A stretch of DNA of 45,539 nucleotides from an uncultured Bacilli bacterium (lineage in GTDB: Bacteria > Bacillota_I > Bacilli_A > RF39 > UBA660): assembly GCA_947594595.1 (NCBI GenBank), contig CANQEE010000002.1, positions 1-45,539 of the forward strand, in the 5' to 3' direction. The notes below the pieces were generated by a model. It saw nothing but the letters and a program-made list of their open reading frames with translations. It did not search any database and was not told the DNA's origin. A program made the position numbers and the translations under genes. The stretch's first letter is position 1. Each line of letters begins with the position of its first letter. Shown piece by piece: positions 21,630 through 28,013 of the stretch.

Positions 21630-24600
21630 ATGGGACTTAGTACAAGAAATAGTCAATTTTCATTTCAGCAAAGAACAGAAAATTTTTCTTCAAAAAAATC
21701 CAATAAAGTCTTAAGTGAAGAAGAAAAAGCAAAAATAAAAGAGAATATTGATCAATTTAGTAATAAAAATACAGTGGCAGAACAGTTTGAGATGTTAAAT
21801 CTAACTCCAGAAAAAGGAAGTTTGGACCTGATAAAAGAAACAGCAAAATACAAAAAAGAACTTAAAAGCCAACAAGAGATATTGGAAAAGATGCAAGTAG
21901 GGATGGAAGAAGAATTAAAGAGATTAAAGGAAATTGATTTGCATTTTTCCAAAGAAGAAAAAGAAACACCGAGGACACCAAATCCAGCAACAGGAAAGCA
22001 AAGTTCTAATCTAGATGAAAAAATTAAAGAACAAACAGAATTTGAAACGTATGAAGCTTTTCAAGAAAGAATCAAACAGTTAGAAATAGATATCACAACA
22101 GGAAAAGATTTGCTAGAAAAAGTAGAAACGATGGAAAGTCTTGCTAAATATACAGTGATTATGGGAAGTGATGCACTTCAAAGTTACACTTCTAAAATAG
22201 AAAGATTAGGGCAAGAAGAAAAAGAGAAAATAATAAATGATTGTAAGATAAAAGTGGAAGGGAAACTGTTGTCTGAGGTGTCTTATAAAAAATGTCTAGC
22301 CCAAGGATATGATTTATCCCCATTAGAATTTTATACTTTGTTTCAAGAAGTTTATCCAGAAGGTGAAAAGAAGGTTATAGAGCTTTCTTCTTCTGGACTC
22401 GATTTAGAGACTTTAGATTTATTAAAGCAATTAGAAAAAGCGAATCAATTCAATCCAACATTAAGTAAAATTTATAACTATTTGTATGAAACAGAAGGTT
22501 TAGAAGAAGCGACAGAATATTTAAAGAAATCACAAGAGGAAGTAAACCAGACTTTAGGAATAGAACAAGCCAAAGAATTTTTAGAGAAATTAAAAGATGA
22601 TCCAGAAGGAAAAGAGAAGTTAATGAATCACTTGAAGATAGCAGGGAAAGGATTGGGAGATGGAGTAGAATCTTTTGTAGATGGATTCAAAGCATGGTTA
22701 AGCCAAGATAAGACAAAGAGTATAGAACAGTATGAAACAATGTATATCTTACAAGAATTAAGTAGTGGGAAATATGGAGATTGGCTAGATAAGAACTATG
22801 AAATCAGCCAAACAATAGGAAATATGTTACCTGTTATCAGCATAAGTATGATTTCTCCATTAGCAGGAACAATTAGTTTAGGTGTTTCAGCAGGAGGAAG
22901 TAGTTATCAACAAGCGTTATCTGAAGGAAATAGTTTGCAGAAATCAATTTTATATGGTGTTTTATCAGGAAGTTCAGAAGCGTTATTAGAAAGATTTTTA
23001 GGAGCGATGCCAGGAGTTAGTAAGTTAGATGAAAGCACATCTTTTATAGTCAAAATGGTAAGAGAAGGTGGAGAAGAGGCATTGGAAACAATATTCCAAA
23101 GTACACTTTTAGACCCATTAGTACTAGGAGAAGAAATCAACTTAGACACATTAGGAGAAGAATCATGGAATTCATTTGTAATGGGAATGATTGTATCCGG
23201 AATATTAAATGGAGTAGGAGAAGCCGCTAACAGAACTTTTAATTTTATTATTGATGGAGAACATCACACCTTAACACTAGATGAATTGAAAGAGTTAACC
23301 AATTACGTGATTAAACAGAATCAAGCTACTGTATCGAGTAATGGTGCAGGCTACTTCAATGCAATAGCGATGTGGTTTCAAAAAAGAAAAAGTTCAAAAA
23401 AAATTCCAAGGAAACCCAACTTAAATTTTCTAAGAGCTTCTAATTTACAAGAATGGATAGAAGATGTAAAAGAAGCAAAGTCTTTGTTATCGGAAGGCGA
23501 ATTTCAGGATGAAATACATCATTCTATAATTTCAGATAAATTGCCAGATGAATATAGAAGTTATTTAATTGAAAACTATACATCCTCTATAAATTCTTTA
23601 GGGCTTAATATTGAAATGATTCAAGATAGAAAAATAAAAAAGGATTTGTTTTTAAAGTTTCAATCTTCTTTAACTGAAACGGAAGTTTCCAAATTAGCAA
23701 GTGACCTTATACAGAATAAAGAAACAACTAATCAAGAAAAAAAACAGATGTTAGACGAATATATAGAAAAATTAAGTCCACAAGACTTAGGAAATATAGT
23801 TTCTAGTATAAAAGAAATAGAAAAGGTAAATTACCTGTTACAAGACTGTACTGAGAAAATAAATCAAGCGGGTTGGAGTGGAATTTTTTCTGCCATTCAA
23901 GATAAAAAATTAAAATATCATCTATTTAATAAATATCAATTCAGTTTAAATGAAACGCTAAGAAATAATATAGCATCAGAATTTCTTCTTGAAGAGTTTT
24001 TAACAGACGCAGAAAGATGGAAACTTATTAACGAGTGTAAGTACACCACTTTTGATTCTGAAAAAATAATAAAAGCAGTCACAATGACGGATACTCACCT
24101 GCAAGTTAGTGAGATTTTAAGAGGAAATTTGCCATCAAATATATCGTTAAAGATAGAAGAAAATTTATTATTCTCTAAGGAGTGTAGCAAAGAAGATAAA
24201 ATAAAGTTATTACAACGTGAACACTATGAATATGGTATAAATTTCTTTAAATTTTTTAATTCTAATCAATATTCTCCTGCCCAAAAATTACAATGCTTGG
24301 AAGATATTTCTTCGTTATTTTCTTCTGATTTTGTTAAAAATAGGTGTTTACAAATATTAAGTTTCTGTGGAGAAGATAGTGAAACAAGAAATATTATCCT
24401 AGAAAAATATGCAAAAAATTTTGGAATCAACCAAAAAATCATTGATTTGATTACATATTATGAAAAAAAATGCGAAACACTTTCTAATTTTACGGTTGGA
24501 GAACATGATGCCCTTTTAAAAGAATTTATACAGCATAGTGCACTTTATAATTCTAAGACGATTGATATAATTTTAAATTCAGAAAATACAATATCCCAAT

Positions 24601-27600: not shown

Positions 27601-28013
27601 GACTTGAAACAATCAAGATGCAAGATGAGGAAAAATACGAGAAAGTTATTGCTAATATCATACTTGCTAAAAAAGTACTCAAAGAGGCTAAATGCTACAA
27701 ACCCAATCGAGGTGATAACCCAGAGGGTGGTTTAGGTGGTTCTGGAATAGAAAACTGGGTTTTACAGAATGGTGGTTCTTTTTATGATGCGGCAGTAGAG
27801 TTTTTAAATGCTTCTTCAGGAAAAGATTTTGAAGAATTTAAGAAAGAATATACAGTATGGGATTTTGGAGAAAATTACTTTGCAGAACGAGGAATGCAGA
27901 AACAAGAAAAAAGCTTTTATTTACATGATAATTTTGTAAACAATATGAGTGAGTCAGGATATAAAAAAATGATCCAAGCATTACAGGAATATGTGGACAA
28001 GTTTGAAAAGTAA
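21630..28013 (+). CDS. 2127-aa multidomain protein: coiled-coil N-terminus, Gly-rich hydrophobic segments, helical tandem repeats, unknown globular domain, C-terminal class-I CCA/PAP-like nucleotidyltransferase
   Basis: SD GGAGGAAGG. Uninterrupted 6.4-kb ORF. C-terminal motifs: GSTGRKTNSIRDGDFDFLVRV (nt 27315-27374), VVDVDLSF (third acidic residue, Asp at 27531-27539), and AKKVLKEAKCYKPN...GGLGGSGIENWVLQNGGSF. No signal peptide. Confidence 0.85.
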   Translation: MGLSTRNSQFSFQQRTENFSSKKSNKVLSEEEKAKIKENIDQFSNKNTVAEQFEMLNLTPEKGSLDLIKETAKYKKELKSQQEILEKMQVGMEEELKRLKEIDLHFSKEEKETPRTPNPATGKQSSNLDEKIKEQTEFETYEAFQERIKQLEIDITTGKDLLEKVETMESLAKYTVIMGSDALQSYTSKIERLGQEEKEKIINDCKIKVEGKLLSEVSYKKCLAQGYDLSPLEFYTLFQEVYPEGEKKVIELSSSGLDLETLDLLKQLEKANQFNPTLSKIYNYLYETEGLEEATEYLKKSQEEVNQTLGIEQAKEFLEKLKDDPEGKEKLMNHLKIAGKGLGDGVESFVDGFKAWLSQDKTKSIEQYETMYILQELSSGKYGDWLDKNYEISQTIGNMLPVISISMISPLAGTISLGVSAGGSSYQQALSEGNSLQKSILYGVLSGSSEALLERFLGAMPGVSKLDESTSFIVKMVREGGEEALETIFQSTLLDPLVLGEEINLDTLGEESWNSFVMGMIVSGILNGVGEAANRTFNFIIDGEHHTLTLDELKELTNYVIKQNQATVSSNGAGYFNAIAMWFQKRKSSKKIPRKPNLNFLRASNLQEWIEDVKEAKSLLSEGEFQDEIHHSIISDKLPDEYRSYLIENYTSSINSLGLNIEMIQDRKIKKDLFLKFQSSLTETEVSKLASDLIQNKETTNQEKKQMLDEYIEKLSPQDLGNIVSSIKEIEKVNYLLQDCTEKINQAGWSGIFSAIQDKKLKYHLFNKYQFSLNETLRNNIASEFLLEEFLTDAERWKLINECKYTTFDSEKIIKAVTMTDTHLQVSEILRGNLPSNISLKIEENLLFSKECSKEDKIKLLQREHYEYGINFFKFFNSNQYSPAQKLQCLEDISSLFSSDFVKNRCLQILSFCGEDSETRNIILEKYAKNFGINQKIIDLITYYEKKCETLSNFTVGEHDALLKEFIQHSALYNSKTIDIILNSENTISQFVELAGDSNAFLARLLFSRDLDSNEKLQLLEQSATKYPRDYEFYRKNIDEKLQKFFKWENISEIEKFQLLKDIAPRLSSSFIKENMVPLIYSICGEDVQKRNAMLKENVDYIGQDCVQLIEYYEKEYKKISKGNKKEHDVLLKEIATHSDIYNSRIIEAMLKQEKSMSQFAELIETNKGLFLVKLLSSQDLTENEKLQFLNQSIENDYFYSRWYLSSSVIEENISECLQLDDTLSDIEKFQLVKDLSSKLPSSFVKENMVPLIYSICGEDFQKRSTMLKENVDYIGQDCVQLIEYCEEKYHQIFKENPDVHETIIVEDLEKHTEFYQKDIIDTIFSSLDTAKKYADTIKTEFREEFQDGILDLAKNGNLSPEKIEQLADVLNSLANTNSHSLYSIRKSLASQLVKSKNPLESFLKIEAIFLKNNIPLYAKMFYCFQILYPNLAEFNFTDVSRMSPQLQDNFIENMRVFGKNATSIDKRFNIIYNDDLQIAVKSNQKNLRDFLTNLEEGDALFSKLTSGEMNLESLSSEQEKVLNTFTEHLETLYQNTKEGKKNPISFTQNNLLEKLKILKEKFQPNNRYDLKDRIVRAFGYSAGFTSFDGIKSAMQNAVLEADARGRKYARQLERGTKFRFDEGDFVRAIGDYTVLGMSLDSGNFCKEHLSVFKGTSDSDTTPLDVDFSKIKKSEKDTIYDDLDGTPTGFGFGNVYLVVKKDNPNLNITREMENQLTGTPYLPSKMEMFQTGYESHWGVRTGFALTDIDYILYKNQAKIDADMPYDENGNVHYAENLTFDDLPAIKFEIARHGYYIPVVDFSGNLIFTEEEYNTLRKKMMGLSYYDTQPYIFSEHLNFPEIESITSELETSNREIVEKRNKIYPVLEEVFSKYQLKLEKEVMGNLLPGYVEVIDTGSTGRKTNSIRDGDFDFLVRVDQNLVKDQAKYEQFKEDILKKFQEYPLEKVTITNNGDYRLKGVKIDENTVVDVDLSFAIKTDKVAYSTDECLKDRLETIKMQDEEKYEKVIANIILAKKVLKEAKCYKPNRGDNPEGGLGGSGIENWVLQNGGSFYDAAVEFLNASSGKDFEEFKKEYTVWDFGENYFAERGMQKQEKSFYLHDNFVNNMSESGYKKMIQALQEYVDKFEK
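24273..25640 (+). repeat. three tandem ~170-173-aa coding repeats inside the giant ORF
   Basis: Units start at 24273, 24783 and 25302 (periods 510 and 519 nt). Units 2 and 3 share a ~140-nt near-identical core (about 24838-24978 vs 25357-25497; ...FIKENMVPLIYSICGEDVQKRNAMLKENVDYIGQDCVQLIEYYEKEY vs ...FVKENMVPLIYSICGEDFQKRSTMLKENVDYIGQDCVQLIEYCEEKY). Confidence 0.85.

What the first reader, a model, noticed from the sequence alone, without database searches (positions are those of the whole stretch)
21630..28013. Orphan 2127-aa protein ending in a class-I CCA-adding / poly(A)-polymerase-like nucleotidyltransferase
This is by far the largest ORF in the window, and it sits among core genes (yfhO upstream, ireB-ruvX downstream). 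The last ~280 aa carry three elements in the correct order. First, the Pol-beta NTase strand-turn motif G-S-x9-D-x-D (IDTGSTGRKTNSIRDGDFDFLVRV). Second, a third acidic residue on a later strand (VVDVDLSF). Third, a helical-domain motif AKKVLKEAKCYKPNRGDNPEGGLGGSGIENWVLQNGGSF. These parallel archaeal class-I CCA-adding enzymes (GS..R.TWL....D.D.F ... K.FLK..GIYG.E....GFSGY..ELL....GSF) and eukaryotic PAP (GFLGGVSWAMLV). Bacteria normally use class-II CCA enzymes, so a class-I/PAP-like RNA nucleotidyltransferase head at the end of a giant repeat protein is unusual. The layout (long N-terminal non-enzymatic region, C-terminal enzymatic head) resembles effector or polymorphic-toxin logic. NTase toxins acting on tRNA 3' ends (MenT/AbiEii type) give a mechanistic precedent. 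I could not assign the first ~1800 aa to any family. No small immunity-like gene follows it.
Basis: partly seen in the sequence, partly recalled or inferred. Interest (0 to 1): 0.85.

Follow-up and report, generated by a model that had tools for sequence, protein, structure and literature searches.

The report
Giant modular effector ending in nucleotidyltransferase
The 2127-residue gene is real and ends in an apparently active poly(A)-polymerase/OAS-type nucleotidyltransferase, but it is not an orphan: it joins a front end typical of giant type VII secretion toxins to a widespread, unstudied 780-residue enzyme cassette from gut Bacilli.

Summary
The ORF at 21630..28013 is real: 2127 aa, a strong ribosome-binding site, and protein homologues. 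G1896-S1897, D1909/D1911 and D1970 are invariant in 63 homologues. A confident AlphaFold model (pLDDT 88) matches yeast poly(A) polymerase, CdnC/CdnD/CdnE, OAS1 and TUT4/TUT7/GLD-2 (Foldseek probability about 1). A specifically class-I CCA identity is not shown.

"Orphan" is wrong. The last ~780 aa form a conserved cassette found in 818 protein clusters and 534 species genomes, mostly uncultured gut Bacilli. It usually ends ~1500-aa proteins. Residues ~280-560 form a second module shared with giant proteins that lie next to EssC/WXG100 (type VII secretion) genes. Those proteins carry interchangeable toxin heads: ADP-ribosyltransferase, Fic, transglutaminase-like.

In a sister genome the same yfhO|ireB slot holds a different 1030-aa relative, while the flanks are ~81% identical. 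So polymorphic-effector logic is supported. Export, target and chemistry remain inferred. No secretion genes and no immunity gene lie in the window. I rate it a new variant of a known kind, of moderate interest.

The parts
21618..21623 (+). Shine-Dalgarno GGAGGA, 6 nt upstream of the ATG. The gene starts only 33 nt after the yfhO stop, so it is probably co-transcribed with yfhO.
   Evidence: sequence; one search found no promoter or terminator excess in 21300-28500
21630..28013 (+). Complete CDS, 2127 aa plus stop codon
21630..22466 (+). aa 1-279: charged N-terminal region rich in Glu, Lys and Leu. It aligns with the region just ahead of the N-module in P0001, P0286 and P0285. It lacks the ~230-aa Ser/Thr/Asn-rich leader of P0001 and P0286. 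It has no LXG or WXG100 Pfam hit.
22467..23309 (+). aa 280-560: conserved Gly-rich, partly hydrophobic 'N-module' (NYLY..G...YL ... GKGLGDG ... IGNMLP ... SAGG.AY ... YG.L.G.SEA). It is shared with giant proteins in type VII secretion loci and, more distantly, with giant phage virion or cargo proteins.
   Evidence: invariant G345, G352, N398, G423, G433, G458, E479, E483
22824..22892 (+). aa 399-421, MLPVISISMISPLAGTISLGVSA: the only segment with transmembrane-like hydropathy (Kyte-Doolittle 19-residue mean 1.67)
23427..25679 (+). aa 600-1350: lineage-specific region of internal repeats. There are about three ~175-aa units (46-52% identical, spanning aa 860-1450) and shorter repeats at aa 630-800. 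No homologues were found outside this protein.
25680..26489 (+). aa 1351-1620: first part of the conserved ~780-aa cassette, an all-helical domain (model pLDDT ~85) with no structural match
26490..27149 (+). aa 1621-1840: second part of the cassette, an alpha/beta domain (GDFV.GIG ... SD.TPLD.D ... HYG.RTGF ... NGFYIPV). The fold is unassigned. The only similarity is weak and non-significant, to ADP-ribosyltransferases (tankyrase, DarT).
27150..28010 (+). aa 1841-2127: long helix, Pol-beta NTase core and PAP/OAS-type helical lobe
27315..27362 (+). Catalytic strand-loop-strand: G1896-S1897 ... D1909-F-D1911
27531..27539 (+). D1968-V-D1970; D1970 is the invariant third carboxylate
27660..27782 (+). 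Helical-lobe motif ILAKKVLKEAKCYKPNRGDNPEGGLGGSGIENWVLQNGGSF. K2014, K2018, Y2023, K2024, G2033, G2034, G2036, E2041, N2042 and L2045 are invariant.

Best explanation
The gene encodes a giant modular effector that belongs to a polymorphic protein family.

Shown:
- (a) The front end (aa ~1-560, core 280-560) is homologous to giant proteins that sit directly beside EssC-like FtsK/SpoIIIE ATPases and WXG100-type small proteins, that is, in type VIIb secretion (T7SS) loci. Those proteins carry interchangeable enzymatic heads: ADP-ribosyltransferase exotoxin, Fic, transglutaminase-like and HD.
- (b) The back end (aa ~1350-2127) is a conserved three-part cassette of a helical domain, an alpha/beta domain and an NTase. 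It is widespread in uncultured gut Bacilli. It ends in a Pol-beta NTase with a PAP/TENT/OAS/CD-NTase-type second lobe and a fully conserved catalytic triad.
- (c) The chromosomal slot between yfhO and ireB is hypervariable between closely related genomes.

Inferred:
- The protein is exported by a type VII system encoded elsewhere in the genome.
- The Gly-rich hydrophobic N-module helps it cross or insert into a membrane.
- The NTase cassette is the delivered payload.
- The chemistry is template-independent transfer of NMP from an NTP onto a hydroxyl. My preferred acceptor is the 3' end of RNA in the recipient cell (PAP/TUTase-like tailing that blocks tRNA charging or marks RNA for decay). Synthesis of 2'-5'/3'-5' oligonucleotides (OAS/CD-NTase-like) is the main alternative.
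- The lack of an adjacent immunity gene implies one of three things: the substrate is absent from the producer, the long N-terminal part holds the enzyme inactive, or immunity is encoded elsewhere.
For: NTase:
- GS, DxD and the third Asp, plus K/K/Y/K and GG.G..EN..L in the helical lobe, are invariant in 63 homologues.
- The AF2 model has pLDDT 88.3 and pTM 0.88.
- Foldseek against PDB gives yeast PAP 2o1p (E 9.8e-6), CdnC 6u7b/6p80 (TM by target 0.49-0.51), OAS1, the NF90-NF45 complex, TUT7, TUT4, GLD-2 and CdnE, with probability 0.96-1.0 for the top 50.
- Pfam NTP_transf_2 hits 27 of 63 members.

Cassette:
- It matches 818 clusters at 50% identity, mostly at the C-termini of 1000-1700-aa proteins.
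- Homology extends back to query aa ~1350.
- 534 genome stretches match, mostly from gut Bacilli, Mycoplasmatota and Erysipelotrichaceae MAGs.

Polymorphic and T7SS link:
- N-module homologues P0001, P0003 and P0002 lie next to FtsK_SpoIIIE genes of ~1520 aa (or split 868+596 aa) plus 4-6 small ORFs.
- P0004 follows a true WXG100 protein (27.5 bits against a cut-off of 27.3).
- The L088 giant carries the same NTase cassette and directly follows EssC-like and small ORFs that are 58% and 69% identical to those in L006.
- L094 has two tandem N-module giants, one with Fic and one (P0150, 2179 aa) with the same architecture as the query.
- Heads vary across the family: ADPrib_exo_Tox, Transglut_core, HD, ART-PolyVal, LPD3, PBECR3.
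- P0160 (5100 aa) has the N-module, an internal cassette, a C3-like ADP-ribosyltransferase (PDB 1ojq, E 2e-5) and an overlapping 111-aa ORF.
- In sister genome GCA_947627225.1 the same slot holds P0286 (1030 aa; 37% identical over the N-terminal part, different tail). Flanking DNA is 81-82% identical, but the slot is unrelated apart from 260 bp.
- That sister genome also has an EssC locus with the paralogue P0001.
Against: - No EssC, WXG100 or partner-protein gene lies in the 45.5-kb window.
- The N-terminus has no LXG or WXG100 Pfam hit.
- No immunity-like gene follows the ORF here or after P0150.
- Most cassette-bearing proteins (~1500 aa) have neither the N-module nor a type VII context. 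Their neighbourhoods are not conserved and show no recurrent downstream gene. The cassette could therefore act inside the producer cell.
- In several giants the cassette is internal and a different toxin sits at the end. The cassette may therefore be an accessory rather than the warhead.
- Distant N-module relatives occur in phage virion modules.
- The acceptor substrate is entirely inferred from fold relatives. Structure matches do not separate RNA-tailing enzymes from oligonucleotide synthases.
Confidence: 0.55

Rival explanations
1. The chemistry is OAS/CD-NTase-like rather than PAP-like. The head would use an NTP as acceptor and make 2'-5' or 3'-5' linked (cyclic) oligonucleotides. These would either deplete NTPs or falsely trigger nucleotide-activated suicide effectors such as CBASS in the recipient. 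The delivery logic is the same as in the best explanation.
For: CdnC, CdnD, CdnE and OAS1/OAS3 are among the best structural matches, and CdnC and CdnD give the highest target-normalised TM scores (0.49-0.51). There are weak hits to PADLOC 'Cyclase' models (E 0.004-0.09) and to SMODS in 3 of 63 members. A 34-residue helix precedes the NTase core, like the spine helix of OAS and cGAS (the comparison is from my own knowledge).
Against: The PADLOC and SMODS hits are all sub-threshold. No cyclic-nucleotide-sensing effector gene is adjacent in the window or in 79 related loci. PAP and TUTases score just as well. From my own knowledge, the GGLGG.G.ENW motif resembles the GGLSSY..(L)MV motif of TENT/PAP enzymes.
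Confidence: 0.2
2. The protein is not secreted. The cassette is a cytoplasmic enzyme of the producer, for example a single-protein anti-phage or stress system or an RNA-tailing factor. The repeats would act as a sensor or scaffold, and the N-module would be an unrelated membrane anchor.
For: Most of the 534 genomic copies are ~1500-aa proteins without the N-module. They sit in unrelated chromosomal contexts, with no type VII genes and no conserved immunity gene. A split version (1015 + 550 aa) is cargo on a Tn4451-like mobilisable transposon, a typical place for defence or resistance genes. No immunity gene follows the ORF in the window. The GC content of the gene matches that of the surrounding chromosome.
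Against: The query's first 560 aa are homologous to proteins that repeatedly lie in EssC/WXG100 loci and carry classic exotoxin heads. The slot is swapped between sister genomes. PADLOC finds no defence-system model.
Confidence: 0.2
3. It is a domesticated phage or conjugative-element 'polyvalent protein' (in the sense of Iyer, Burroughs and Aravind 2017). Such proteins are normally packaged or transferred with DNA to disarm the recipient.
For: Distant N-module homologues carry ART-PolyVal, LPD3 or PBECR3 domains. They sit in P22-portal-type virion modules or after a prophage lysis cassette. There is a sub-threshold LPD14 hit at aa 1325-1377. Several relatives are multi-effector giants of 3000-6100 aa.
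Against: No phage or conjugation gene lies in the window; the neighbours are dnaE, lspA, yfhO, ireB, ruvX and infC. The cassette is absent from 50,697 GenBank phages, 72,556 plasmids and IMG/VR, and the N-module from GenBank phages. The NTase described for polyvalent proteins is a minimal, Ntox45-like domain fused to ArdC-N (PMC5512222), not a two-lobed PAP/OAS type. The closest N-module relatives are all in type VII loci, not phage loci.
Confidence: 0.05
4. It is a housekeeping class-I CCA-adding enzyme or poly(A) polymerase that replaces the usual bacterial class-II enzyme.
For: The fold group is the same.
Against: No CCA enzyme is among the top 50 structural matches. The protein ends ~160 aa after the third Asp, so the class-I body and tail domains that hold tRNA cannot be present. 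A closely related genome has a different gene without this cassette in the same slot. A 2127-aa repeat-rich protein whose best homologue is only 57-58% identical in the cassette is not what a core enzyme looks like.
Confidence: 0.02

Closest known systems
Eukaryotic/archaeal two-lobed Pol-beta NTases: canonical poly(A) polymerase, TENT/TUTases (Cid1, TUT4/7, GLD-2), class-I CCA-adding enzymes
   Same: Same NTase core with hG[GS]-x11-DxD and a third Asp about 59 residues later. A helical second lobe follows, whose first helix carries conserved Lys/Tyr and a Gly-rich segment. These enzymes are top Foldseek matches.
   Different: Sequence similarity is undetectable: no PDB hit by phmmer or hmmsearch. 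The protein has no RNA-binding domain of PAP and no body or tail of class-I CCA enzymes. The NTase is preceded by a conserved ~500-aa helical plus alpha/beta region that has no counterpart. Activity on RNA is untested.
Bacterial CD-NTases (CdnC, CdnD, CdnE, DncV) and OAS/cGAS
   Same: Same fold group. These give the best target-normalised TM scores (~0.5). A long helix precedes the core. They are a bacterial precedent for this fold in conflict systems.
   Different: No CBASS operon partner (effector, Cap2/3, HORMA) lies nearby. The PADLOC and SMODS hits are sub-threshold. The NTase is embedded in a 2127-aa protein.
T7SSb LXG polymorphic toxins (for example EsaD, TelA-C, YxiD) with Lap/WXG partner proteins
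   Same: Homologues of the N-terminal part lie immediately downstream of EssC and small helical or WXG100 proteins. They carry swappable C-terminal toxin domains, often followed by a small ORF. Paralogues occur at loci away from the secretion genes.
   Different: No LXG Pfam domain is present. The proteins are far larger (1200-6100 aa) and contain a Gly-rich hydrophobic module not described for LXG toxins. The window copy has no partner genes and no immunity gene.
Polyvalent proteins of phages and conjugative elements (PMC5512222) and MARTX-like multi-effector toxins
   Same: Giant polypeptides that string several enzymatic modules together. Some relatives combine the NTase cassette with a C3-like ADP-ribosyltransferase. 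Distant N-module relatives carry ART-PolyVal, LPD3 or PBECR3.
   Different: The window copy lies among core chromosomal genes. The cassette is absent from the phage, plasmid and viral collections. The NTase type differs from the minimal NTase of polyvalent proteins.
NTase toxins MenT / AbiEii and MNT-HEPN modules
   Same: They are a precedent that Pol-beta NTases can be growth-arresting toxins by nucleotidylating tRNA 3' ends or proteins (established knowledge).
   Different: Those are ~150-300-aa minimal NTases in two-gene toxin-antitoxin operons. This protein has a second PAP/OAS-type lobe and no antitoxin. The weak HEPN_RiboL-PSP hits in 9 of 63 relatives are not backed by a conserved Rx4-6H motif.

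Membership tests
Pol-beta nucleotidyltransferase superfamily | hG[GS] loop followed by Dx[DE] on the next strand | tested here: met
   G1896-S1897 and D1909-x-D1911 are invariant in 63 sequences. They lie between and on model strands 241-247 and 261-268.
Pol-beta nucleotidyltransferase superfamily | Third catalytic carboxylate on a later strand | tested here: met
   D1970 is invariant and lies in model strand 317-327.
Pol-beta nucleotidyltransferase superfamily | Significant profile match (Pfam NTP_transf_2) | tested here: inconclusive
   The query scores E 0.017-0.028, 15-16 bits, below the cut-off of 21. Homologue P0095 scores 28.8 bits, above the cut-off, and 27 of 63 members hit at E<=0.1.
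Pol-beta nucleotidyltransferase superfamily | Carboxylates superpose on the metal ligands of a solved NTase | not testable with these tools
   Model coordinates and residue-level Foldseek alignments were not available. Only the topological position could be checked.
PAP/TENT/OAS/CD-NTase two-lobed NTases | NTase core plus PAP/OAS1-type helical substrate-binding lobe, recognisable by structure | tested here: met
   33 PDB matches at E<=1e-3 with probability 0.98-1.0: PAP, CdnC, OAS1, NF45/NF90 complex, TUT4/7, GLD-2, CdnE, MiD51. Alignments span 300-380 columns and TM by target reaches 0.51.
Class-I (archaeal) CCA-adding enzyme | Head-neck-body-tail architecture with a tRNA-binding body and tail | tested here: not met
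   The protein ends 157 aa after D1970, which leaves room only for a head and a neck-like lobe. No CCA enzyme is in the top 50 structural matches.
Class-I (archaeal) CCA-adding enzyme | CCA addition to tRNA | not testable with these tools
   This needs a biochemical assay.
CBASS CD-NTase | Operon with a nucleotide-sensing effector (with or without Cap2/3 or HORMA/TRIP13) | tested here: not met
   The neighbours are yfhO and ireB/ruvX. No recurrent partner gene appears in 79 related loci.
CBASS CD-NTase | Match to CD-NTase/SMODS profiles | tested here: not met
   PADLOC Cyclase gives E 0.093 for the query and 0.0044 for P0037. SMODS hits 3 of 63 members, best E 0.018. All are sub-threshold.
T7SSb LXG-type polymorphic toxin | N-terminal LXG/WXG100-like targeting domain | tested here: not met
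   No LXG or WXG100 hit in aa 1-280 at E<=1 or in the whole protein.
T7SSb LXG-type polymorphic toxin | Genomic association with essC, esxA or small partner genes | tested here: inconclusive
   Absent from the window. Present next to homologues P0001, P0002, P0003 and P0004 and next to the L088 giant. The rest of this genome was not available.
T7SSb LXG-type polymorphic toxin | Variable C-terminal toxin domains on a conserved N-terminal part | tested here: met
   The heads seen are ADPrib_exo_Tox, Transglut_core, Fic, HD and the NTase cassette. The slot is swapped in the sister genome.
T7SSb LXG-type polymorphic toxin | Cognate immunity gene immediately downstream | tested here: not met
   The 164-nt gap to ireB holds no ORF. 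The same is true after P0150.
Polyvalent proteins (Iyer et al. 2017) | Encoded in a phage, or in a conjugative element next to T4SS genes | tested here: not met
   The context is core chromosomal genes. The cassette is absent from the phage, plasmid and viral collections.
HEPN RNase fused to the NTase | Conserved Rx4-6H motif in the helical domain | tested here: not met
   The candidate Arg is present in only 35 of 63 sequences and the His in 53 of 63. The query has an R-x11-H spacing because of an insertion.

The most novel reading that the evidence does not exclude
The ~780-aa cassette (helical domain, unassigned alpha/beta domain, PAP/OAS-type NTase) is a previously undescribed family of delivered enzymatic payloads, spread across hundreds of uncultured gut Bacilli species. 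On this reading, type VII-linked giant effectors have captured it as a warhead that needs no cognate immunity protein. It would act through a chemistry not yet known for secreted bacterial toxins. One candidate is untemplated tailing of recipient RNA 3' ends. The other is synthesis of immune-type oligonucleotide signals that turn the recipient's own nucleotide-activated defences against it.
Probability: 0.3. Interest if true: 0.75.

Novelty: new variant of a known kind. Interest (0 to 1): 0.55.

Why it matters
If the inference holds, three things follow.
- A PAP/TENT/OAS-type nucleotidyltransferase would join the catalogue of toxin or effector domains carried by type VII-linked polymorphic proteins. 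In the papers searched here that catalogue includes RelA/SpoT-like nucleotidyltransferases but no PAP/OAS-type enzyme.
- A large unnamed protein family would be defined: 818 clusters, 534 species genomes and no Pfam model, in poorly studied gut Bacilli lineages.
- A conserved Gly-rich module shared by type VII-locus giants and giant phage virion proteins would become a candidate membrane-translocation device.

Even on the conservative reading, the analysis corrects the 'orphan' label. It also gives exact catalytic residues (D1909, D1911, D1970) and domain boundaries for experiments.

Tried and rejected
- Pfam, NCBIfam, PHROGs and PADLOC on the whole protein gave no significant family; only a sub-threshold NTP_transf_2 hit appeared.
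- Sequence and profile searches of PDB with the C-terminus or alignment A1 found no NTase.
- The structure of aa 1340-1870 had no significant PDB match. The repeated tankyrase, DarT and ART-PolyVal hits have E of about 0.1-2 and probability 0.1-0.5, so I kept them only as a lead.
- I rejected the HEPN reading of the last helical lobe because the Rx4-6H motif is not conserved.
- I looked for a conserved neighbour or immunity gene across 79 loci and found none. The commonest neighbour family is an ABC transporter, in 16 loci at varying positions.
- I looked for type VII genes in the window by Pfam and by tblastn with the sister genome's EssC and small ORFs, and found none.
- Exact-sequence look-up of the window protein found nothing on record.
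- The phage, plasmid and IMG/VR searches for the cassette, and the phage search for the N-module, were negative.
- Literature searches for a type VII NTase toxin of this kind found nothing relevant. The S8-PTS paper (PMC9424270) was unrelated.
- I treated the ARAGORN tRNA-Glu call inside the ORF as spurious.
- The promoter and terminator scan was uninformative.

Full report
**1. Observation**

The window holds a single ORF at 21630..28013 (+). It is 2127 aa and by far the longest in the window. GGAGGA sits 6 nt before the ATG, and the gene starts 33 nt after the yfhO stop. GC content (0.28-0.31) matches the surrounding DNA.

The neighbours are core genes:
- Upstream: dnaE, lspA, a pseudouridine synthase, a rhomboid protease and yfhO.
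- Downstream: ireB, ruvX, DUF1292, a PDDEXK_2 transposase-like gene, infC, rpmI, rplT, rpsB and tsf.

**2. The C-terminal head is a real NTase of the PAP/OAS type**

On its own, the query hits Pfam NTP_transf_2 only below threshold (E 0.017). Other evidence is stronger:
- In a 63-sequence alignment of homologues, G1896, S1897, D1909, D1911 and D1970 are invariant. So are K2014, K2018, Y2023, K2024 and the GG.G..EN..L segment.
- 27 of 63 members hit NTP_transf_2 at E<=0.1, one of them above the curated cut-off.
- AlphaFold2 on this alignment gave a confident model (pLDDT 88.3, pTM 0.88). The GS loop lies between two strands, DxD opens the second strand, and the third Asp lies on a later strand. 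This is the canonical Pol-beta NTase topology.
- Foldseek against PDB returned 33 hits at E<=1e-3, all two-lobed NTases: yeast poly(A) polymerase (best, E 9.8e-6), CdnC, OAS1 and OAS3, the NF90-NF45 complex, TUT7, TbTUT4, GLD-2, CdnE, MiD51 and Cid1.

No class-I CCA enzyme is in the top 50. The polypeptide ends 157 aa after D1970, so the class-I body and tail cannot exist. Sequence-only searches of PDB find nothing, so this is a deeply divergent branch.

Nine relatives weakly hit HEPN_RiboL-PSP in the last helical lobe. The would-be Rx4-6H motif is not conserved, so I reject that reading.

**3. The protein is not an orphan: the C-terminal cassette**

A full phmmer scan with the last 479 aa found 818 clusters at E<=1e-3, of which 584 are at E<=1e-30. 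Most hits are the C-termini of 1000-1700-aa proteins. Some lie inside 3000-6100-aa proteins.

BLAST shows that the conserved unit reaches back to about aa 1350. It has three parts:
- a helical domain (aa ~1351-1620);
- an alpha/beta domain (aa ~1621-1840);
- the NTase (aa ~1841-2127).

A second model, for aa 1340-1870, is confident (pLDDT 82.9) but has no significant structural neighbour. Tankyrase, DarT and ART-PolyVal hits recur at non-significant scores. This is an unproven hint of an ADP-ribosyltransferase-like fold.

In one genome per species, 534 stretches encode the cassette. They come overwhelmingly from uncultured gut Bacilli, Mycoplasmatota and Erysipelotrichaceae MAGs from rabbit, ruminant, mouse and human (Hadza) samples. 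The best match is only 57% identical, and typical proteins are ~1500 aa.

Their neighbourhoods are not conserved, and no recurrent downstream immunity-like gene exists. The cassette is absent from GenBank phages, PLSDB plasmids and IMG/VR. One split version (1015 + 550 aa) is cargo on a Tn4451-like mobilisable transposon carrying a serine recombinase, Mob_Pre and TnpV.

**4. The front end ties the protein to type VII-linked polymorphic giants**

Whole-protein and N-terminal searches found 27 homologues, nearly all matching only aa ~280-560. This is a Gly-rich module with one transmembrane-like segment at aa 399-421.

These homologues are 750-2980 aa long and carry different heads: ADP-ribosyltransferase exotoxin, transglutaminase-like, HD, and (in more distant members) ART-PolyVal, LPD3 and PBECR3.

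The contexts of the closest homologues are:
- P0001, P0003 and P0002 lie beside ~1520-aa (or split) FtsK_SpoIIIE ATPases and runs of 80-230-aa ORFs.
- P0004 follows a WXG100 protein that scores above the Pfam cut-off.
- L088 has EssC and the same small ORFs, followed by a giant of at least 3018 aa that contains the NTase cassette.
- L094 carries two tandem N-module giants. One ends in Fic. The other (P0150, 2179 aa) has exactly the query's architecture and is followed by a housekeeping oxidoreductase.
- P0160 (5100 aa) has an N-module, an internal cassette and a terminal C3-like ADP-ribosyltransferase with an overlapping 111-aa ORF.

More distant N-module proteins (P0017, P0018, P0019) lie in P22-portal-type virion modules or after a prophage lysis cassette. 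A module shared by type VII-locus giants and giant phage virion or cargo proteins suggests, by inference only, a role in crossing or inserting into a target membrane.

**5. The locus is a variable slot**

The MAG GCA_947627225.1 is a close relative: IF3 is 94% identical, EF-Ts 83% and trigger factor 82%. Its yfhO|ireB-ruvX-DUF1292 slot holds two small genes and P0286. P0286 is 1030 aa, 37% identical to query aa 42-556, and has an unrelated tail.

At DNA level the flanks are 81-82% identical. The slot itself aligns only over a 60-bp leader and 200 bp inside the N-module.

The same MAG has an EssC locus with the paralogue P0001 immediately upstream of infC. In the window that position is occupied by a PDDEXK_2 transposase-like gene, so the two genomes are rearranged here.

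**6. Mechanism**

Shown: a real gene; modular homology; an intact NTase active site; polymorphic head swapping; association of close homologues with type VII loci; and a hypervariable slot.

Inferred:
- Export by a type VII system encoded outside the window.
- A membrane-translocation role for the N-module.
- The NTase cassette as payload.
- Nucleotidyl transfer to RNA 3' ends (preferred) or oligonucleotide synthesis (alternative).

Two facts weaken the simple 'toxin head' picture and keep a cytoplasmic role alive (rival confidence 0.2). First, no immunity gene is present here or after P0150. Second, most cassette proteins lack any secretion context. The phage/polyvalent reading and the housekeeping-CCA reading are unlikely (0.05 and 0.02).

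**7. Comparison with known systems, and novelty**

The head works like PAP/TENT/OAS/CD-NTase enzymes and passes the fold-level membership tests. It fails the tests for class-I CCA enzymes, CBASS CD-NTases, LXG toxins in the strict sense, polyvalent proteins, MenT/AbiEii and HEPN.

The NTases recorded for polymorphic toxins and polyvalent proteins in the papers I read are RelA/SpoT-like or minimal Ntox45-like domains (PMC3482391; PMC5512222). Literature searches found no description of this cassette or of a PAP/OAS-type type VII payload. Absence from this library is not proof of absence.

I class it as a new variant of a known kind: a polymorphic or multi-effector giant with an undescribed NTase cassette. 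Interest is 0.55. It is still notable for the size of the unnamed family, the missing immunity gene and the unexplained N-module.

Noticed in passing
window 24411-24493 (-): ARAGORN calls an 83-nt tRNA-Glu(ttc) inside the giant ORF on the opposite strand. Rfam at gathering threshold finds no tRNA anywhere in the window, so this is probably a false positive in AT-rich coding DNA.
   Followed up: partly
window 29336-30181 (+): A PDDEXK_2 (Rpn/transposase-like nuclease) gene sits exactly at a synteny breakpoint. In the sister MAG, DUF1292 is followed by smc, and infC is preceded by an EssC locus with a giant toxin. In the window, DUF1292 is followed by this gene and then by infC.
   Followed up: partly
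window 31121-31708 and 31801-32745 (+): Ribosomal proteins L20 (195 aa) and S2 (314 aa) are both unusually long. They share a similar Lys-rich C-terminal extension, which in the sister-genome orthologues hits Pfam Rho_N. tblastn shows cross-hits between the two tails.
   Followed up: no
window 34287-35093 (+): A divergent protein-kinase/APH-like gene (Pkinase E 1.9e-10) is only 40% identical to its syntenic orthologue in the sister MAG. Its neighbours are 74-94% identical, so it is evolving fast.
   Followed up: no
window 38568-40546 (+): Between the L21-Prp-L27 genes and obg lie a 279-aa ORF with no Pfam hit, a 208-aa R2K-clade ATP-grasp protein (R2K_2, E 1.7e-6) and a 120-aa ORF with no hit. 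These are unusual companions for the ribosomal/obg cluster.
   Followed up: no
L001-L005 (about 4940-10119 in each locus): A Tn4451-like mobilisable transposon (serine recombinase, Mob_Pre, TnpV) is found inserted at several different sites. Its cargo is a three-gene set: a 1015-aa protein, the 550-aa NTase-cassette protein P0051 (seen on 170 contigs) and a 151-aa protein. Together the first two look like a split version of the ~1500-aa family.
   Followed up: partly
L092 10001-18829; L093 10001-18943; L089 10001-15466: Giant (1821-2980 aa) phage proteins carry a distant copy of the Gly-rich N-module. They are encoded at the end of P22-portal-type head modules or just after holin and endolysin genes. 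They may be ejected virion proteins that share a membrane-active module with type VII-locus giants.
   Followed up: partly
L009 10001-13093 (P0286 aa ~800-1030) and P0006 aa 1043-1210: The tail of the sister-genome slot protein (…GLWHYTT…SFFFAG…) is shared with P0006 and has no Pfam hit. It looks like a small unassigned toxin domain, possibly an H-Y-E-type ADP-ribosyltransferase. That comparison is from memory only.
   Followed up: no
P0001, P0286 and the L088 giant, N-termini: Several type VII-locus giants start with a similar short motif (M..GGSKQF.INLHLNL / MQQFDINLNLDF) followed by ~200 aa of Ser/Thr/Asn-rich low-complexity sequence. The window protein keeps only an MG.S...SQFSF-like start and lacks the low-complexity stretch. 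This could be a targeting signal.
   Followed up: no
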